A DNA stretch of 64,000 bases. Origin: Eledone cirrhosa (lineage: Eukaryota). A program made the position numbers and the translations under genes. The notes beneath the pieces were generated by a model. The model saw only the letters and a program-made list of their open reading frames with translations, did not search any database and was not told the origin of the DNA. Of the stretch, positions 11,174 to 51,824 are shown in pieces. Every line of letters begins with the position of its first letter. The first letter of the stretch is position 1. The DNA is taken from contig OZ024740.1 in NCBI GenBank assembly GCA_964016885.1, positions 74,462,001-74,526,000 of the forward strand. The letters are read 5' to 3'.

Positions 11174-12812
11174 TGTACAATGCTCAGGTGCACTACAACT
11201 CATCAAAAAGTGTACATAGGGTAATATACAAACGTCAGGAAAATGAACAGTGCATGAGTCATGATATACACATGTGTGCGTGTGTATGGAAGGGGTACAT
11301 CAGGTGTAGTTTTGGCGAATTTCGGGAAGCATGAAGGTTGAAAAGGATGCAGTGTCTCGGCAGCTAACAACTGACGCAGGCAGTTTGTTCCATGCTTCAG
11401 CAACTCTGAGCGTGAAAAAATGTTTCCGAAAGTCATGGGAGCTGTGCTGTTTTCTGATTTTGTAGGCATGTCCACGTGTGTTAGACACATGGAGATCAAA
11501 AAGGTGCTCAGGGTTGTTGTTGGCGAGATGGTTAATAACTTTGTGGGTGTTTACCAAGTCCATTGCCAGACGTCGGAGCTTCAATGAATCCATGCCCAGG
11601 GAAGCAAGGCGTTCAGAGTATGGTAGGTGTCTGATGGAGGGTATGCGCTTGGTTGCACATCTCTGAACAGTTTCCAGGAGGTCAATGTTCTGAGCAAGAT
11701 AGGGGTTCCAGACTGATGATGCGAATTCCAAGTGTGGTCGTACCATAGCTGTATACAGCTTTAAATAAATGGCTGGAGAGCGGCTAACAAAGGTCTTGCT
11801 GAGTGATGCCAAGACACCCTCGGCCTTCTTGACAATCTTAGAGACATGCTTTGTCCAATACAAATCGCTGCTGACAGTAATGCCCAGGTCACGTTCACAA
11901 GAGGACTTCTTGATATCAGTGTTGTGGAGGGAGTATGTGGACGCTGAATTTTTCCTCCCAAAATGCATGATGGTACACTTGTCCACAGCCAGCTTCAGTT
12001 GCCAGTCTGTGATCCATTGCTGCATTGTGTCCAGGTCTGATTGTAGGAAAGAGTTGTAGATTTCAGGATCAGTCCTTTTGATTTCAATGTGCAGCTTGAT
12101 GTCATCTGCATATTTCAGTACCGTAGCATTCTTTAAGTTGGCATCTATGTCATTAATATATGCCACAAACAAAAGGGGACCAAGAACAGATCCCTGTGGT
12201 ACACCAGATGACATCTCATATGGTGAAGAATGCTGTCCTAGAACCGTGACTACCTCTTTTCGGCTGGGAATGAAGGATTTCAACCAGTTAAAAAGATCAT
12301 CCCTCACACCCATTGCAGAGAGTTTTGCCATAAGTCTTTTGTGTGGCACAGAATTAAAAGCCTTAGCGAAGTCAAGGTAAACAACATCCACCCATGAGCC
12401 GCTGTCAGTGATCCGGGTAATGTCTTCAAGGAACTCGATAAGCTCATCACAGCAGCTGGAGTTAGGGATAAATCCAAACTGCGAGGGCCGGATGAGGCTG
12501 TGAGAGCTCCAGAAGTTCCAAAGTGTTTCTCTGACACAGAATTCCATCAGTTTGGCAATACAGCTAGTAAGACTGACTGGACGATAGTTGATAGGTGACG
12601 TGCAGTCGCCCTTTTTGAATAGGGGAATGATACTGGCAGTTTTCCACTGCTCCGGAGTAGCACCATTGTTGAGACAGTATTGAAAGAAAAAAGCTGGTGC
12701 AAAAGGAAGTACCCGCCACGTTTGAGACGCAGGTATGTAACACCATCAAGACCAGGGGAGGCATAGTTGCGTTCAAGGATATGAGGATTTGTGGGATGGG
12801 ACATTGCCCAAA
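11174..12812 (-). mobile_element. 5'-truncated CR1-clade LINE with a 415-aa open RT/C-terminal frame
   Basis: DVVYLDFAKAFNSVPHKRL, SGVPQGSVLGPLLF, KYADDIK, ERDLGI, VRPHLEFASSVWNP, TRGH, FFTLRVAEAWNKLP. Upstream in-frame NYRPVSLTS; frameshift near 12700. Confidence 0.93.
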
Positions 12813-25803: not shown

Positions 25804-26472
25804 TACTTTATATATATATATACATACATATATATATATAAATACATTATCGGAGAAAGCTTTTTAGCAATACTCTGGCCAAATTCCAACTCACTCAACA
25901 AACATTAGGAAATAAGTGAGTATATTCCTAATTAGGCGTTCGAGGTGCTAACTAAATGTGTGAAAAATTGACTGTATTATTTCATATGAGACATATCAAA
26001 TATATCTCTTCCCAGACGGACGTCTCGTTTCATTATAGGAATATATATATATGAATGGAAAACAATAGTTCTATATCAAAGTTAGCAATTTTCAAGATAA
26101 AGTGACATTTTATATAATGTATATCCCAAAGTCGAAGGTACTATTTTTTCATAAAATAAATCTCAAAAATTTACTATGTATCCTAGAAGATGAAGGGTAC
26201 ATTTTTCATATGCCAATTCTAATCAAAGATAAAAGTTATTTATGCAAGACATTAATTTCAACTCCTAAATGTATCTGTTCTCTGCTATCCAACCCATGCT
26301 GTTTAAAAAAACCTTGCTGATATCAATGAAAGATACAAAGAGCTGTGTATAAAGGTTGAAAGCTGTTATATAACCACCTCACTTGCTTCAAAGAAATGGC
26401 ACAAAGAAAAATTATGTAAAATTCAAGATAATATGAAATATCAATAGAAATAAATAAATTAACAAAAATTAC

Positions 26473-26562
26473 CTGTGAAATATTACTTCCGAATTCAGCA
26501 AATTTTGCTTTTGTATCTTCAAGAGCAGTATCACCAAAGCAAAATGGATTACTTTTTGATAG
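26473..26562 (-). CDS. ZPR1: ZPR1 coding exon 12
   Basis: AG|LSKSNPFCFGDTALEDTKAKFAEFGSNISQ|GTAATT, 90 nt; NPF..GD motif. Confidence 0.92.
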
Positions 26563-26789
26563 CTTTGGATTAAAAAAAAAGGAATATTTATAAACTTGTG
26601 GTTATGTAAGTATAGGTGTATATACATAATGTGTGTGTGTGTGTGTATATTTATTTATATATATACATAGAGAGAGAGAGAGACATGTACATATGCATAC
26701 ACACACACACACGTGTGTATACATGTATATATGCATAGACACACATATGTGTGTGTGTGTGTATACATGTATATATATACACACACACA

Positions 26790-27490
26790 TAAAAGACATA
26801 AAGGTAGGGAAGGCAGCCGGACCATCTGGTATAGTTGCTGAGATGTTAAAAGCATCTGACATGGTAGGATATGTGCTAATCAGATGCATTGTTAACCAAA
26901 TAGTACAGGATGGGGTCATACTCAATGACAAGTGCAGTAGTATCATTATAAATTGCTACAAGGGCAAAGAAGATGCAGTAAAGAAAAGTAACTACACAGG
27001 TATCAAGTTGATGGACCAAGTCATGAAATTACTAAAAGGGTTATAGCACAACTAATTAAGAACAGAATCAAGTTAAGTGAGTTTGGATTTATGCCAGGTA
27101 GGGAGGGGTACTAATGACGCCCACTTTCTGGTCAGATAACTACAGGAGAGGTACTTATCTAAGTGTAAGCCACTCTATCTGGCTTTTGTAGATATGGAGA
27201 AGGTGTTTGACAGGGTCCCACGATCTGTATTCTGGTGAACACTTAGGAAGCTAGGCAGAGATGAATGGCTTGTGAGGGCTTGTGCAGGCCATGTATAAAG
27301 AAGCAACCAGTAGAGTGAGAGTTGGAAATGAGTACAGTGATGAATTTGAAGTGCAAGTGTGAGTCTACCAGGGCTCAGTCCTCAGCCCATTCCTGTTTAT
27401 CAGTCCTTCAGGCACTGAGGAGTTTCAAATTGGCACTTCATCAGAGCTCTTATATGTTGACAACCTAGTCCTCATTGCTAAATCTCTATG
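26790..27490 (+). mobile_element. RTE RT fragment
   Basis: KAAGPSGIVAEMLKAS, YKGKEDA, AFVDMEKVFDRVP, QGSVLSP remnants with stops. Confidence 0.85.
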
Positions 27491-27795
27491 AGAGTTTAAT
27501 TTAATCTACATAAACTTGATCTTTTTTCATTCTTCCCCTTAAAAAAAGAACTATTGACTCTTAACATCCTGTAATGATTTAATTGAAAATATCTAAAAAC
27601 AAGTTTATAAACTTATGTTTATGATATCTTTACTCATTAAAAAATTGTGAAATTTTGCAATATTAGAATGGAAGTCTTAAATTTTATTGTGATGCAGTCA
27701 TTGTGCTACTTTTCTGTACTTTTCAAGAATGTCTTACTGATGTGGTTTTATGTGGTACAGGACATTAAGAATTAAAACAAAAACTCTTGACTTAC

Positions 27796-27906
27796 TGAGT
27801 CTCTTATGTCACTAAGTAAACCTTCAACTGTTGTAAACTTTCCTCCTAATGACCCCATCATAGCTTCGAGTTCAAGCACTGGAATGGAAATACTGCAGGT
27901 CTCACT
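27796..27906 (-). CDS. ZPR1: ZPR1 coding exon 11
   Basis: ttccAG|[37 protein letters not shown]|GTAAGT, 111 nt; hallmark [11 protein letters not shown]. Confidence 0.97.
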
Positions 27907-28006
27907 CTGGAATCAAAACATCATCAACATTTATATCATCATCAGTTAAAGATCCAGTGACAGACAAAATATATTTTGAACAAGTAAAACAATTTTGTAT
28001 ATGTAT

Positions 28007-28120
28007 ATATTAGAAAGAGTTGGGGCCCAACAGCTGAGCTCTTGCTGTTTCAACAGCTAGTTCTAAACAGCTGTTGAAATGGCAAGAGCTCAGCCGTCAG
28101 GCCCCGACTATTTCTAATAT
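28007..28120. repeat. ~110-bp palindromic hairpin repeat
   Basis: Arms of about 52 bp: TATATTAGAAAGAGTTGGGGCC...GAGCTCTTGCTGTTTCAACAGCT and AGCTGTTGAAATGGCAAGAGCTC...GGCCCCGACTATTTCTAATATA. Confidence 0.85.
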
Positions 28121-28172
28121 AGTCATACTTTACTAACCCAACTAGTCCAACTAGTTTAGAACTGGTTCTATG

Positions 28173-28228
<56 letters not shown>

Positions 28229-28271
28229 AAGAAAACGCGAAGTAGTTTCAGATGTTAAAGTCCTTTATTAG

Positions 28272-28352
28272 TAAGGCTGTGATATATTTCAATGACGACA
28301 GTGGCCATGCGATTTCGCCTAACCAGTGCCATGATCTCATCAGACAGCCTCA
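28272..28352 (-). ncRNA. Type I hammerhead ribozyme motif (Penelope-like element terminal-repeat type)
   Basis: Minus strand TGAGGCTGT-CTGATGA-[long hairpin]-GAAA-TATA-TC-ACAGCCTTA: intact core, 9-bp stem I, palindromic minimal stem III, then AATAAA and (TA)n. Confidence 0.75.
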
Positions 28353-28864
28353 TTACATAACATTACATAATAAGGTTACGTTCTCAAGGCAATACAAATT
28401 AAAACAAGGGGCTGGACAAAGCTAATGTTTTTGAAGCCTTCACCCATTCCCTTATGAGCCCTAATTCCTTTCCATACATATGAAAACACATCATATAAAA
28501 AATTAATTTACATGATCAAATGTTTCAATAAGCCAAAATGGGTATGGTAAATGGTATGTTATATCTGGAGCCTTGGTATGTCTCATGAGAGTATGGCCCT
28601 GCACATGGAAATTTCATCCCTAAAGTGCAGAATTTCGTAAGTTTTCTTTTTTTTTTTATAGAAAACCAGTAGATGTCTATGCATGCAACCCTCCCCTTTC
28701 TATGCTATCAATATTGTCCACAGGGAAACACAGAATGCAAATGATGTAAAGCGTCACATCCAATGTCTTAACAATTCTGTTAATCCCCTGCTTAGGACTA
28801 GTACTTTATTGACTCCAAAAGGGAGAAAATGAATGTTGACTTCTACAGGGCTTCAATTCAAAAT

Positions 28865-29108
28865 TCAGCCAGTTTTCATAACTTGGAACGACTAAGAGTA
28901 CAAGACTTCCCCCGGGACAAGACGCCCGTCCATCGCAGAGTTAGATCCCCAGCTATTGCTGGTACTTATTTTCAGTTGAGTATACAGGAGTAATGTGAAA
29001 TGAAGTGTTTTGCTCAAGAACACAACACACAACCCAGCCCAGGAATTGAACCCACGACATTATGATCGTAAGTCCAACTCCCTTACAACTAGGCCACACA
29101 CCTCCACA
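28865..29108 (-). mobile_element. tRNA-derived CORE-like SINE
   Basis: Minus strand GGAGGTGTGTGGCCTAGTTGTAAGG (A-box), GGTTCAATTCCTGG (B-box), then TCTTGAGCAAAACACTTCATTTCACATT. Confidence 0.75.
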
Positions 29109-29288
29109 ATGTAATTATCTACAAGAAATACCTTTCATATTTCAATTTCACAGAAAATATTACAACCAAAGTTTTCAGTGTTTTGAAATATAGATAAAGA
29201 AAAATAAATTTCAGCAAATCAATGAAAATACAACCCTCTTAATAACATTAAGATAAAGTAAAAATTAAAAAAGAAAGAAATTATATAC

Positions 29289-29449
29289 CTTCAAGACATC
29301 TCGAGAGAGATCAGAAATTGTCCGAATGTTCAAGTCCATGAGTTTCCCTTTTGGTTCAATAGCGCCACTACTTTTAACTTCATTATCCCGGTGGCCACAT
29401 TGTTCACAAGTGGTAGCCATTATAACAACCTCTTTAAAATGAGGAATAT
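29289..29449 (-). CDS. ZPR1: ZPR1 coding exon 10 (second half of zinc finger 2)
   Basis: (N)[53 protein letters not shown]|GTATAT, 161 nt. Confidence 0.97.
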
Positions 29450-30671
29450 CTAGCAGTGTTAAGGTAGACAGCATGAAGAATTAGAATTCTTTATTTCTAA
29501 CTATATAATACATAAAAATTACTCAAAGAATGCAATTTTTTTCCTTTTAAATTTGTCATTAAATGATGCTATTATAAGGAAATAAAAAATGAAAGAATAA
29601 CATCACTAAATCTACCTTTACAATCTGCTCCATTACAGTCTTGGGAACTATATATAATAAACAGAAGTAGAGTGAGAACTGAGCCCTGATATGCACAAAC
29701 CTTCAAGCTAAATTACTCACTGAACTTATTAAATTTTATTTTGCCGACAGAAGATGGTTCACAAGGCTCTCAAAAGCCATTCATTTATCCCTGTTTCTTA
29801 GAAATTATATCATGAAAGTGTCATTTTTAGCCATTAAAAAAACACAAAATACTATTATATTCACTTCTAATTTATTCTAAAGAATTGCAGAGACGACGAG
29901 GCTGCAGAGAATGTAATGAAAAATTTGAAACCATGAAACAAATGAAGAGTGAACAGTCATCAACACCATTTTACATCCATTTTCCATGCTGGCATCAGAA
30001 GGACAGTGTTATAGTCTGTGACTAGGAGATTTGGATACTAACCCTTGCTCACACATTGCATATTTTGGCATCACTTCTACAGTTGGATGCCCTTCCTAAT
30101 GCCAACCACTTTACAGAGTACATCACATGTATTTTATTGTAGCACAAGCACTACCACTTTAGAGTGTACAGGGTGCATTTTATCATGGCACCAACACTAT
30201 CCTGTACTCATCAAGAATGAAGAAAACCCTCTACTCTGTAACAGTTTTTTAGTGTTTTTTAAATGGTTAAAATGACTGTTCTATGATGTAATTGCTTTAG
30301 TTTTAACACATTAAGACACTTGCCAAACAAGTACAACTCCCAAATTATTTTGATTGGAAATAGTTTGTTAGGTATTTAACAAATATGGGAAAGGAAATAT
30401 TTGTTTAAATATTTGATTACCATATTTCTAATGAATGACACTGCCTATGATTTTCAAATAATTTTGAATATAATCAAGAATTTAAAGAGATTTAGTAATA
30501 TAACTAACTTTCTTAATAAACTGGCATTTGGAACATATTTTTACATTAAATTATGATGGAAAGTTTTCAGGTAAGTTTAAACATTTCAAAACAAACAGGG
30601 CTGTACCATCAAATCAAGGACAATTTCAGGTGGTTTAGTATCAAAAGGATTAAGTTTTATTCAAAGGATAC
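29450..30671 (-). other. U12-type GT-AG intron (ZPR1 intron 9)
   Basis: 5' site GTATCCTTT (30671-30663); branch site CCTTAAC (29464-29458) just before the AG; no pyrimidine tract. Confidence 0.92.
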
Positions 30672-30738
30672 TGACTAACTTCATGTTAGTAGAACACCGT
30701 GTATTGCAGCTAGGACAGTCTATATGAAATGATAACAC
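30672..30738 (-). CDS. ZPR1: ZPR1 coding exon 9 (first half of zinc finger 2)
   Basis: attacAG|VLSFHIDCPSCNTRCSTNMKLV plus A, 67 nt. Confidence 0.95.
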
Positions 30739-31204
30739 CTGTAATGAGAAAATAGAACAGGATATATCAAATTTGTCAATACAACAAAGTCTGGAAAACA
30801 TTTCAAAATACTCAATTTATGTTTTGTATCTGTTGCAGGACAAGGTATATTCTGCTTCTGGTTTTAAACATTTCGAAGTGATAGACCAACAGTAAATCTA
30901 GAGTAATCTATAAGAGAGATTTTCACACAAAATATTTTCGAGTATTTGTTGTTAATGTCTGGGTGAGAGGGATGAGTGATAGGAAGAATGAATTCTATCT
31001 AATAAAAAACATGTTCTTTCAGAAAAAAATTGGAATAGAGAGAGAGGCCTAGGCAGCAAAGACAGGATTTAGATGATTTGTATCTCGGAGTAAATAAGTA
31101 GGAAATAGTTCATAGGACCAAGCTTGAAACTAATTCCATGAACAACGATTTAAGAAATTACATTCAGGATGTTTGCATAAGAAATGGATTATTGCTATAC
31201 ATAC

Positions 31205-47078: not shown

Positions 47079-48241
47079 TCTAATATATATTTGTGAAATG
47101 GGTGGTGGTTGAAATTCAGTTGTGCACGGTTAAATGGTAGTAGACGTGGTCAGACGGACATGAAAATTTACACACCTATGTAAAAAGTGCCAAGGAAGCA
47201 AATTGACAAGGTTTCAAATCTCTAACTTGAAAAATGTCGTCCCTAGGGCCCCCAAACGGTCTATTTACTATCGCTTACGGTGAGTTATTTCCCCCTGTTC
47301 TAATACTTGGATGAGTTATTTTCCGTAGTCGCTTTCAATATTCATTGTCTTATTTACAATTTCATACAAATTTTTAAACTCATCAATATTTTCATAGCAT
47401 ATCAAACAACGTTCTTTCGCTGTTTTTGAAAGTTTATTATAAAGAAGCAGTTTCAGGGGGAAAAATAGAAATATGCACTTGGGGCTGGACGGCGTACAAT
47501 GAGAAGTGGAGCGACGTGAAAAGTGTTGTTTATTAACAGCGAAATAGCAATGTCGATGATATACAAGTTTGAAAATGCAGATTATGAAGGTTTGTATGAT
47601 AGTTTACACTTTGATTGCCCTGGTCAGCAAGAGGGGCCTCTTTTTTTAATATTCATTGTCTTATTTTAAATAACATATCAAAGACAACGTTATTTCGCTG
47701 TTAATAAACTGTTGCCTTCTACAGTACGTTTCATTTTCATTTTTCAATTACAGTTGCTCTATATTAAATTTAAATACTTATATAACGATCATACAGTACC
47801 GTTTTATGAAATCGATTCTGCAGTAGAATTTTACGAAATGCCAAACCGAAAAAGGTCACTGTTTTCTAACAAAAGAAATAAAACCCTTACATTACGAACC
47901 CCCTGTTTTAATACTGATGTTAGTTATTTCCCCCTCTTCTAATAAACGTCTAATATATAGAGGCCCCTCTTGCTGACCAGGGCAATCAAAGTGTAAACTT
48001 TCATACAAACCTTCATAATCTGCATTTTCAAACTTGTATATCATCGACATTGCTATTTCGCTGTTAATAAACAACGCTTTTCACGTCGCTCCACTTCTCA
48101 TTGTACGCCGTCCAGCCCCAAGTGCATATTTCTATTTTTTTCTCCCTGAAACTGCTTCTTTATAATAAACTTTCAATAATATTTTTCAAATTATTAACTT
48201 AATAAAAAGTGGCCCCGGGTGCAACCGGGCTCAGCTGCTAG
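47079..48241 (+). mobile_element. Non-autonomous Helitron with a long internal inverted repeat (copy 1)
   Basis: A|TCTAATATATAT 5' end; 3' hairpin CCCGGGTGCAACCGGG then GCTAG|T. Internal inverted arms 47426-47641 and 47959-48176. Confidence 0.88.
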
Positions 48242-50646: not shown

Positions 50647-51824
50647 TAATATATATATTTGTGAAATGGGTGGTGGTTGAAATTCAGTTGTGCACGGTTA
50701 AATGGTAGTAGACGTGGTCAGACGGACATGAAAATTTACACACCTATGTAAAAAGTGCCAAGGAAGCAAATTGACAAGGTTTCAAATCTCTAACTTGAAA
50801 AATGTCGTCCCTAGGGCCCCCAAACGGTCTATTTACTATCGCTTACGGTGAGTTATTTCCCCCTGTTCTAATACTTGGATGAGTTATTTTCCGTAGTCGC
50901 TTTCAATATTCATTGTCTTATTTACAATTTCATACAAATTTTTAAACTCATCAATTTTTTCATAACATATCAAACACAACGTTCTTTCGCTGTTTTTGAA
51001 AAATATTATTGAAAGTTTATTATAAAGAAGCAGTTTCAGGGGAAAAAATAGAAATATGCACTTGGGGCTGGACGGCGTACAATGAGAAGTGGAGCGACGT
51101 GAAAAGTGTTGTTTATTAACAGCGAAATAGCAATGTCGATGATATGCAAGTTTGAAAATGCAGATTATGAAGGTTTGTATGATAGTTTACACTTTGATTG
51201 CCCTGGTCAGCAAGAGGGGCCTCTTTTTTTAATATTCATTGTCTTATTTTAAATAACATATCAAAGACAACGTTATTTCGCTGTTAATAAACTGTTGCCT
51301 TCTACAGTACGTTTCATTTTCATTTTTCAATTACAGTTGCTCTATATTAAATTTAAATACTTATATAACGATCATACAGTACCGTTTTATGAAATCGATT
51401 CTGCAGTAGAATTTTACGAAATGCCAAACCGAAAAAGGTCACTGTTTTCTAACAAAAGAAATAAAACCCTTACATTACGAACCCCCTGTTTTAATACTGA
51501 TGTTAGTTATTTCCCCCTCTTCTAATAAACGTCTAATATATAGAGGCCCCTCTTGCTGACCAGGGCAATCAAAGTGTAAACTTTCATACAAACCTTCATA
51601 ATCTGCATTTTCAAACTTGTATATCATCGACATTGCTATTTCGCTGTTAATAAACAACGCTTTTCACGTCGCTCCACTTCTCATTGTACGCCGTCCAGCC
51701 CCAAGTGCATATTTCTATTTTTTTCTCCCTGAAACTGCTTCTTTATAATAAACTTTCAATAATATTTTTCAAATTATTAACTTAATAAAAAGTGGCCCCG
51801 GGTGCAACCGGGCTCAGCTGCTAG
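50647..51824 (+). mobile_element. Non-autonomous Helitron (copy 2)
   Basis: Duplicate of 47079-48241; CTAG at 51821-51824; the terminal TC is not clearly retained at the junction. Confidence 0.85.

What the first reader, a model, noticed from the sequence alone, without database searches (positions are those of the whole stretch)
28272..28352. Sense-oriented hammerhead ribozyme fold inside ZPR1 intron 10
Seen: on the ZPR1 transcript strand, UGAGGCUGU-CUGAUGA-[GAUCAUGGCACUGGUUAGGCGA-AA-UCGCAUGGCCACUGUCGUCAUU]-GAAA-UAUA-UC/ACAGCCUUA. The core is intact, stem I has 9 bp, stem II is an unusually long (~22-bp, imperfect) hairpin and stem III is a minimal palindrome. Predicted cleavage is between 28281 and 28280. 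Established: minimal type I hammerheads with palindromic stem III occur in Penelope-like element terminal repeats and usually cleave poorly unless dimerised. Inference: this is a Penelope remnant (AATAAA and (TA)n follow) that could cut the pre-mRNA of an essential gene about 370 nt upstream of exon 11. The long stem II looks like an atypical variant.
Basis: partly seen in the sequence, partly recalled or inferred. Interest (0 to 1): 0.72.

Follow-up and report, generated by a model that had tools for sequence, protein, structure and literature searches.

The report
Decayed retroelement hammerhead in ZPR1 intron
A ZPR1 intron holds a real hammerhead-ribozyme sequence, but it is one decaying leftover of a jumping element found thousands of times in this genome and likely cuts too slowly to affect the gene; only its family's long, conserved side arm is unusual.

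Summary
Observation confirmed. An intact type I hammerhead lies on the ZPR1 strand in intron 10, with the predicted cut 374 nt before exon 11. It sits in a ~250-bp remnant of a non-coding, ~1.3-1.4-kb repeat built like a Penelope-like element (tandem and inverted terminal repeats, two preferred 3' ends, microsatellite targets). A strict pattern finds 2,620 related hammerheads genome-wide. After insertion the core decays as fast as its flanks (4.7% vs 4.6%) and 34 of 66 copies keep it intact, so the intact core here is no sign of host use. The 9-bp stem I and the 6-nt stem III are near-private changes of this copy. No partner copy lies in the window, and one run shows the intron spliced. Cleavage of ZPR1 pre-mRNA is therefore unlikely to matter. 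The long stem II (18 bp plus 3 mismatches) is a real family trait: five families show compensatory changes and share a C·C mismatch at pair 4. A similar-length arm is published for one plant element, and this scan already noted long-armed hammerheads in two other genomes. No autonomous partner was found; cleavage is untested.

The parts
28272..28352 (-). Type I hammerhead fold (stems I, II, III and core)
28337..28343 (-). Core strand C3-A9, CUGAUGA, intact
28291..28336 (-). Long stem II, 46 nt: 18 pairs, mismatches at pairs 4 (C·C, shared by five families), 11 and 18, 4-nt loop; first pair G·U
28281..28290 (-). GAAA, 6-nt palindromic stem III (family has 8 nt; 2-nt deletion in this copy), U16.1 and C17; predicted cut after 28281
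28344..28352 (-). Stem I 5' strand; pairs with 28280-28272 (9 bp, one G·U). The family has 5 bp followed by a bulge
28351..28370 (-). 10-nt tandem duplication just upstream of the ribozyme, absent from the family majority
28224..28474 (-). Solo, 5'-truncated terminal-repeat remnant of the non-coding element (old subfamily, 84% to its majority sequence); ends at the first of two preferred 3' ends
28176..28226 (.). (TA)n tract at the 3' end, the usual neighbour of this element
27907..29288 (-). ZPR1 intron 10 (1,382 nt, GT-AG); removed precisely in a contig of run X4
29289..29449 (-). ZPR1 exon 10 (zinc-finger domain PF03367)
27796..27906 (-). ZPR1 exon 11 (jelly-roll domain PF22794)

Best explanation
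This is a hammerhead sequence inside a solo, truncated copy of a multi-copy non-coding repeat that is likely a non-autonomous Penelope-like element, and in ZPR1 it is likely a passenger that cuts too rarely to affect splicing. Shown: the fold, the repeat family and its layout, neutral decay of inserted copies, and splicing of the intron in one run. Inferred: in full elements two ribozymes about 1.3-1.4 kb apart on one transcript would pair through their palindromic stem III and cut out a unit RNA, which a Penelope-type reverse transcriptase/GIY-YIG protein supplied in trans would insert at microsatellites. Selection on those source elements would explain why core, inner stem I and the long stem II are kept between families. 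The ZPR1 copy has no such partner, so it would need a second RNA molecule and a weak 6-bp A-U duplex, within the short time before exon 11 is made and spliced.
For: Repeat family: 1,993 first-look candidates, with 44 other matches among the 40 regions scored; 2,620 strict matches. Layout: 46 inverted back-to-back and 15 direct neighbour pairs of 63, direct spacing mostly 1.29-1.41 kb; 94 of 162 copies end 50-69 nt and 42 of 162 end 130-139 nt after the cut site, 109 of those 136 beside a microsatellite. No convincing reading frame in the body. Neutral decay: rare substitutions 36/760 in the core vs 238/5,205 in flanks, p = 0.85; 34 of 66 copies found without using the core keep it intact. Between families: core plus 5-bp stem I 23/23 identical, flanks 65-87%. 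One copy in the window. Monomer fold P about 6e-7. Palindrome duplex -0.8 vs -2.2 and -3.2 kcal/mol in relatives. Exons 10-11 joined with no differences. In organism B one contig carries the element at the same place, 12% different over the ribozyme against 9% over the flank. Published: animal Penelope hammerheads gave no monomer cleavage and low dimer cleavage (PMC4209133); slow intronic ribozymes did not affect splicing (Fong 2009 as cited in PMC10919898).
Against: No autonomous partner was found, so Penelope membership rests on layout alone. The tail is about 75 nt, not the published 30-40 bp. Energies do not show this copy to be worse than its relatives: its open-core fold is more accessible (0.5 vs 1.6-3.2 kcal/mol in three of four relatives) and its rough dimer balance (+0.2) is better than three of four. 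A cruder first test gave less change in the core than in flanks (6.5% vs 10.0%, p = 0.004); it mixed in subfamily differences, and the middle subfamily alone still leans that way (2/176 vs 40/1,270). RNAalifold does not recover the hammerhead fold but pairs the core with stem II. Distant families were found by patterns that contain the core, so between-family conservation is partly circular. A spliced contig cannot exclude partial cleavage. The insertion has persisted since organisms A and B split (one contig).
Confidence: 0.8

Rival explanations
1. The ZPR1 copy is an active, possibly host-used ribozyme that cuts a share of nascent ZPR1 RNA and lowers mRNA output, as proposed for the CPEB3 intronic ribozyme.
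For: Core intact, sense orientation, present at the same site in organism B. The private A-to-G change makes the open-core fold more accessible than in relatives. Thousands of relatives could supply a partner in trans.
Against: Half of unselected copies keep the core by chance. The ribozyme differs between organisms A and B as much as the flank does. Stem III cannot close in a monomer. The family's stem I bulge, a possible docking site, is lost. At mammalian polymerase speed (3.5-4.1 kb/min) exon 11 is reached in about 6 s, although splicing itself takes longer. The intron is spliced.
Confidence: 0.07
2. The hammerhead is inactive in the whole family; the conserved sequence is kept as a recognition signal for the helper protein, and the long hairpin locks the core in an inactive fold.
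For: In every family folded, the lowest-energy structure pairs part of the core. About half the youngest-subfamily copies lose pair 3 of stem II (A·A in 15 of 30). In the Anolis element, ribozyme mutants inserted normally in vitro and no reads ended at the cut site (PMC11167929).
Against: All core bases, a cleavable UC or UA site and the palindrome are kept across five families while flanks change. U·U at the first stem II position is known to support cleavage (PMC3088659) and is common in Hydra-clade elements.
Confidence: 0.1
3. The motif is a chance fold or an assembly artefact.
For: A loose descriptor hits 6 of 100 resampled windows. No laid contig was shown to span the stem III deletion, so that deletion could be an assembly error.
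Against: Thousands of relatives, none for reversed controls; compensatory changes in stem II; same-species contigs match both flanks with 0-1 differences.
Confidence: 0.02

Closest known systems
Type I hammerheads in the pseudo-LTRs of animal Penelope-like elements, variants with a small palindromic helix III (Cervera and De la Pena 2014, PMC4209133; parts 1-2 of 4 read)
   Same: Type I order, standard core, short stem I, palindromic stem III that needs a dimer, mostly solo copies, pairs on opposite strands 100-700 bp apart, several families per genome.
   Different: Stem II there is 6-8 bp; here 12-18 pairs in a 30-46-nt arm with a shared C·C mismatch at pair 4. First pair is G·U, U·U, A-U or G-C by family. 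No reading frame is attached.
Hammerheads of Hydra-clade and PLE-X elements (Craig et al. 2021, PMC8557442; passages and supplement parts 2 and 24 read)
   Same: (TA)n targets; U·U at the first stem II position is common in their table; Hydra-2_aMil has the same CUGU/ACAG inner stem I; PLE-X1_sMoe has a stem II region of about 53 nt, marked as deviating.
   Different: Hydra hammerheads have 3-7-bp stem II and a 3-4-bp stem III. None of four motif strings from this family occurs in that supplement (line breaks could hide single strings), and Naiad_Ovul shows no such motif by eye.
Non-LTR retrozymes (Cervera and de la Pena 2020, PMC7229834, listing only; Li et al. 2026, bioRxiv 10.64898/2026.07.22.740005, parts 1-2 of 5 read)
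   Same: Non-coding tandem units with one type I hammerhead per unit, argued to derive from Penelope-like elements; 42-44% of copies lie in introns in Xenopus.
   Different: Units here are about 1.3-1.4 kb against 51-972 bp, and carry inverted truncated copies and a two-ended tail. Circular RNA was not tested.
Conserved intronic ribozymes (CPEB3, PMC10919898, passages read; amniote intronic hammerheads, mentioned in PMC6765202)
   Same: A self-cleaving motif on the sense strand of an intron.
   Different: Those are conserved single loci (recalled for the amniote cases) and CPEB3 has measured activity. This is one of thousands of repeat copies with no sign of constraint.

Membership tests
Type I hammerhead ribozyme | Core C3-A9, G12-A14, A15.1-U16.1 and a cleavable N17 | tested here: met
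   All present, C17 at 28281
Type I hammerhead ribozyme | Stems I and II flank the core, ends in stem I | tested here: met
   9 bp and 18 bp; open-core fold 0.5 kcal/mol above the minimum; RNAalifold prefers a fold with the core paired
Type I hammerhead ribozyme | G10.1-C11.1 pair | tested here: not met
   G·U here and in 62 of 66 old-subfamily copies; U·U in two younger subfamilies; G-C in 16 of 22 copies of the 30-nt-arm family. Natural exceptions are published
Type I hammerhead ribozyme | Stem III that closes in a monomer | tested here: not met
   One A-U pair and a 4-nt loop, P about 6e-7; only a 6-bp duplex between two molecules is possible
Type I hammerhead ribozyme | Tertiary contact between stem I loop and loop II | not testable with these tools
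   Family has 5 bp plus a bulge in stem I and C·C at pair 4 of stem II; this copy has lost the bulge
Type I hammerhead ribozyme | Self-cleavage | not testable with these tools
   No assay possible; only contigs were laid, which cannot show RNA ends
Penelope-like element | Hammerhead in direct terminal repeats (pLTRs) | tested here: met
   Repeat-body-repeat units of about 1.3-1.4 kb; arrays of 3 and 5 units
Penelope-like element | Inverted truncated copy at the 5' side | tested here: met
   46 of 63 neighbour pairs are inverted back to back (some loci overlap, so pairs are not all independent)
Penelope-like element | Optional 3' tail giving two preferred ends | tested here: met
   94 and 42 of 162 copies end at two sites about 75 nt apart; published tails are 30-40 bp
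Penelope-like element | Insertion at microsatellites | tested here: met
   109 of the 136 copies ending at the two sites have a microsatellite within 40 nt; no background rate was computed
Penelope-like element | Reading frame for reverse transcriptase and GIY-YIG nuclease | tested here: not met
   None in family majority sequences; nearby fragments in L082, L100, L126, L140 look like separate nested insertions. So at most a non-autonomous derivative
Penelope-like element (non-autonomous) | Shares its 3' end with an autonomous family | tested here: inconclusive
   None of the 30 best GIY-YIG loci, of 150 scored from 10,597 candidates, ends in this ribozyme
Non-LTR retrozyme | Two or more tandem units, each with a complete type I hammerhead | tested here: met
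   Met for the family (G000:C1 near 130.88 Mb); not met for the solo ZPR1 copy
Non-LTR retrozyme | Unit-length linear or circular RNA | not tested
   No search for a circular junction was made
Host-conserved intronic ribozyme | Conserved at the orthologous site beyond its flanks | tested here: inconclusive
   One contig of organism B: 13 differences in about 112 nt over the ribozyme, 34 in about 372 nt over the flank; which ribozyme bases differ was not visible

The most novel reading that the evidence does not exclude
The long-armed hammerhead is a distinct fast-cutting architecture: the shared C·C mismatch at pair 4 of stem II replaces loop II as the docking site for stem I. Thousands of copies then process 1.3-kb unit RNAs, and sense-strand intronic copies such as this one cut host pre-mRNAs often enough to tune genes like ZPR1.
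Probability: 0.07. Interest if true: 0.7.

Novelty: new variant of a known kind. Interest (0 to 1): 0.27.

Why it matters
For ZPR1 it probably does not matter: this is an ordinary decaying repeat copy. The family offers a small gain. It is a hammerhead variant that Rfam misses, with natural covariation across five families and a shared internal mismatch, and it occurs in tandem arrays. That gives ready constructs for an open question: whether Penelope hammerheads need to cut, and how they dock stems I and II without a normal loop II. If sense-strand intronic copies did cut, thousands of insertions would be potential dampers of host genes.

Tried and rejected
Rfam scan of 26000-31000: no hammerhead family at E up to 10, only microRNA-type hits on simple repeats. 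Search for an autonomous partner: GIY-YIG loci, translated flanks of 151 loci (output partly cut), two loci with reverse-transcriptase fragments downstream, young, sister and short-arm families and the Craig 2021 supplement; none found. First decay test set aside because one reference was used for several subfamilies; redone per subfamily, one copy per locus, without CpG sites, gaps or letters shared by more than two copies. The 'S_sister' column is discarded: the classifier mixed in old-subfamily copies, so that family is taken. RNAalifold did not return the hammerhead fold. No RNA holder was listed; run X4 is read as RNA only because its contig skips the intron. Orientation bias of intronic copies could not be tested without gene annotation. 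A full two-molecule fold was not obtained; only a rough energy balance. Lunse et al. 2017, the paper most likely to list long-stem variants, is not held, so novelty of the long arm stays open. Supplementary figures of Cervera 2014 and of the 2026 preprint were not seen.

Full report
1. Observation. On the minus strand: stem I 5' strand 28352-28344, CUGAUGA 28343-28337, a 46-nt stem II, GAAA 28290-28287, UAUA, UC 28282-28281, stem I 3' strand 28280-28272. I mapped 14 exons that give a 442-aa ZPR1 frame; three exons were checked against Pfam and all three match ZPR1 domains. The motif lies in intron 10 on the transcript strand, with the cut 374 nt before exon 11. Stem II has 18 pairs, three 1x1 mismatches and a 4-nt loop, and starts with G·U. 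The lowest-energy fold pairs the core with stem II. The open-core fold is 0.5 kcal/mol higher, and closing stem III in a monomer costs about 7 kcal/mol. Rfam finds no hammerhead here. The genome is a 3.0-Gb animal assembly; that it is an octopus is my recognition of its repeats, not a tested result.

2. It is a repeat copy. A 166-nt query gave 1,993 candidates. Walking out from the copies gave a non-coding unit of about 1.3-1.4 kb with the layout: inverted partial repeat, repeat with tail, body, repeat. Among neighbouring ribozymes in the fetched loci, 46 of 63 pairs are inverted back to back and 15 are direct. Of 162 copies spanning the cut site, 94 end 50-69 nt after it and 42 end 130-139 nt after it, and 109 of these 136 adjoin a microsatellite. 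Tandem and inverted repeats, an optional tail and microsatellite targets are described for Penelope-like elements (PMC8557442, passages; PMC11167929, passages). The ZPR1 copy is a solo remnant, about 28474-28224, ending at the first site before a (TA)n tract; it is the only copy in the window. The genome holds many GIY-YIG elements (10,597 candidates), but I found no autonomous family with this 3' end among the 30 loci fetched or elsewhere.

3. The long arm is a family trait. Patterns and flank searches gave five groups: old (this copy; 46-nt arm), middle (46), young (45; most of the listed rows of 1,281 matches), sister (44) and a 30-nt-arm family whose flanks do not align with the others (247 matches, mostly this family). 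One strict pattern covering them gives 2,620 matches and none for the reversed control; this is a lower bound and excludes the window copy. Old against sister and young: core plus inner stem I 23 of 23 identical, flanks 65-87%, stem II 63-72%. This is partly circular, because distant families were first found through their cores. Stem II itself was not in the patterns that found them. Across families pair 6 is U·G, C-G or U-A, pair 7 G-C or A-U, pair 9 C-G or U-A, pair 11 C·C, C-G, A-U or G-C. Pair 4 is C·C in 61 of 66 old, 17 of 18 middle, 29 of 30 young and 14 of 22 short-arm copies and in the sister majority. On 45 chosen copies (39 distinct), 10 of 20 stem II pairs show a change on both sides (8 of 500 shuffles reach this) and 84% of cells pair against 81% shuffled; stem I shows none in 5 pairs. 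Relatedness inflates these counts. Against this reading, RNAalifold pairs the core with the 3' strand of stem II, and single-sequence minima do the same in part.

4. This copy shows no sign of host use. In 66 copies found by body or flank, one per locus, rare substitutions hit the core at 36/760 and flanks at 238/5,205 (p = 0.85), and 34 keep all 12 core bases. A cruder test had suggested constraint but mixed subfamilies. The 9-bp stem I comes from a G at position 6 found in 1 of 91 other old copies; 68 of 91 have exactly 5 uninterrupted pairs. The 4-nt stem III loop is found once genome-wide by exact pattern, at this site, and in 0 of 91 other old copies. It weakens the dimer duplex to -0.8 kcal/mol from -2.2 or -3.2, but the copy's open-core fold is more accessible, so the overall balance is no worse than in most relatives. 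Six-base palindromes also occur in other hammerhead-like motifs of this genome, so the deletion alone does not kill it. A contig of organism B carries the element at the same site, with about 12% differences over the ribozyme and 9% over the flank (one contig). A contig of run X4 joins exon 10 to exon 11 exactly.

5. Mechanism. Shown: fold, family, layout, neutral decay, splicing in one run. Inferred: in source elements two ribozymes on one transcript dimerise through stem III and release a unit RNA that a helper protein inserts; this follows the model of Cervera and De la Pena (PMC4209133, parts 1-2 of 4; review PMC6765202, passages). They saw no monomer cleavage and low dimer cleavage. In an Anolis element the ribozyme cuts in vitro but is not needed for insertion, and no reads ended at the cut site. 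A solo copy needs a partner in trans. Slow intronic ribozymes did not disturb splicing (Fong 2009, seen only as cited in PMC10919898). I put a passenger at 0.8, a family-wide inactive signal at 0.1 and active cleavage of ZPR1 RNA at 0.07.

6. Comparison and novelty. It works like, and by layout belongs with, Penelope pseudo-LTR hammerheads and non-LTR retrozymes (bioRxiv 10.64898/2026.07.22.740005, parts 1-2 of 5). It fails the reading-frame test, so it is at most a non-autonomous derivative. Published stem II lengths are 6-8 bp in the animal cases I read; one plant element has a region of about 53 nt, and U·U at the first pair is common (PMC3088659, passages). Searches for 'hammerhead ribozyme' with 'octopus' (5 papers), for Penelope with cephalopod, non-autonomous and ribozyme (0 papers) and for 'long stem II' (0 occurrences in 6 listed) showed no description of this family; an Octopus vulgaris repeat annotation does not mention ribozymes (PMC13282606, term search). 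Lunse 2017 could not be read. This scan had already noted long-armed hammerheads in Penelope-type repeats of two other genomes, and 973 of 2,401 notes on this genome fit the word hammerhead. Those are unchecked notes, not support.

7. Verdict. Real motif, ordinary origin, probably inert in ZPR1. The long arm with its shared C·C mismatch is a modest new variant. Interest 0.27.

Noticed in passing
window 34536-34129 and 30671-29450 (minus strand): ZPR1 introns 6 and 9 look like minor-spliceosome (U12) introns: intron 6 has ATATCCTT...AC ends with a TCCTTAAT branch-like site, intron 9 has GTATCCTT...AG with CCTTAAC 8 nt before the acceptor (consensus recalled).
   Followed up: partly
G000:C1 130882149-130893761: Array of the young subfamily: three reverse and five forward ribozyme-bearing units at 1.31-1.32 kb spacing, where ribozymes could pair in cis.
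   Followed up: no
L152-L181, about 450-550 nt after the GIY-YIG stop: GIY-YIG elements with a Neptune-like cysteine linker (label recalled) carry hammerhead-like motifs with a U3-A8 core (UUGAUAA or UUGAAAA), a short stem II and a CCGG palindrome; stem I was not established.
   Followed up: partly
L182-L211: The youngest subfamily starts stem II with U·U and about half its copies have A·A at pair 3, which strengthens an alternative fold that pairs the core; a possible on/off register shift.
   Followed up: partly
window 28000-28127: Inverted repeat with 59-nt arms (85% complementary) in the same intron, between the ribozyme and exon 11; high depth in laid contigs suggests a multi-copy hairpin element.
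   Followed up: no
window about 28880-29110: Very high-copy SINE-like repeat in intron 10.
   Followed up: no
window about 47800-48200 and 51400-51750: Identical translated stretches 3,583 nt apart upstream of ZPR1, suggesting a recent direct duplication or an assembly repeat.
   Followed up: no
window 11303-12745 (minus strand): Stop-free frame of about 480 codons with reverse-transcriptase motifs, a LINE fragment.
   Followed up: no
L082, L100, L126, L140, L171: Different Penelope-type elements nest next to one another in the same (TA)n tracts, which can fake a link between this ribozyme and a reading frame.
   Followed up: partly
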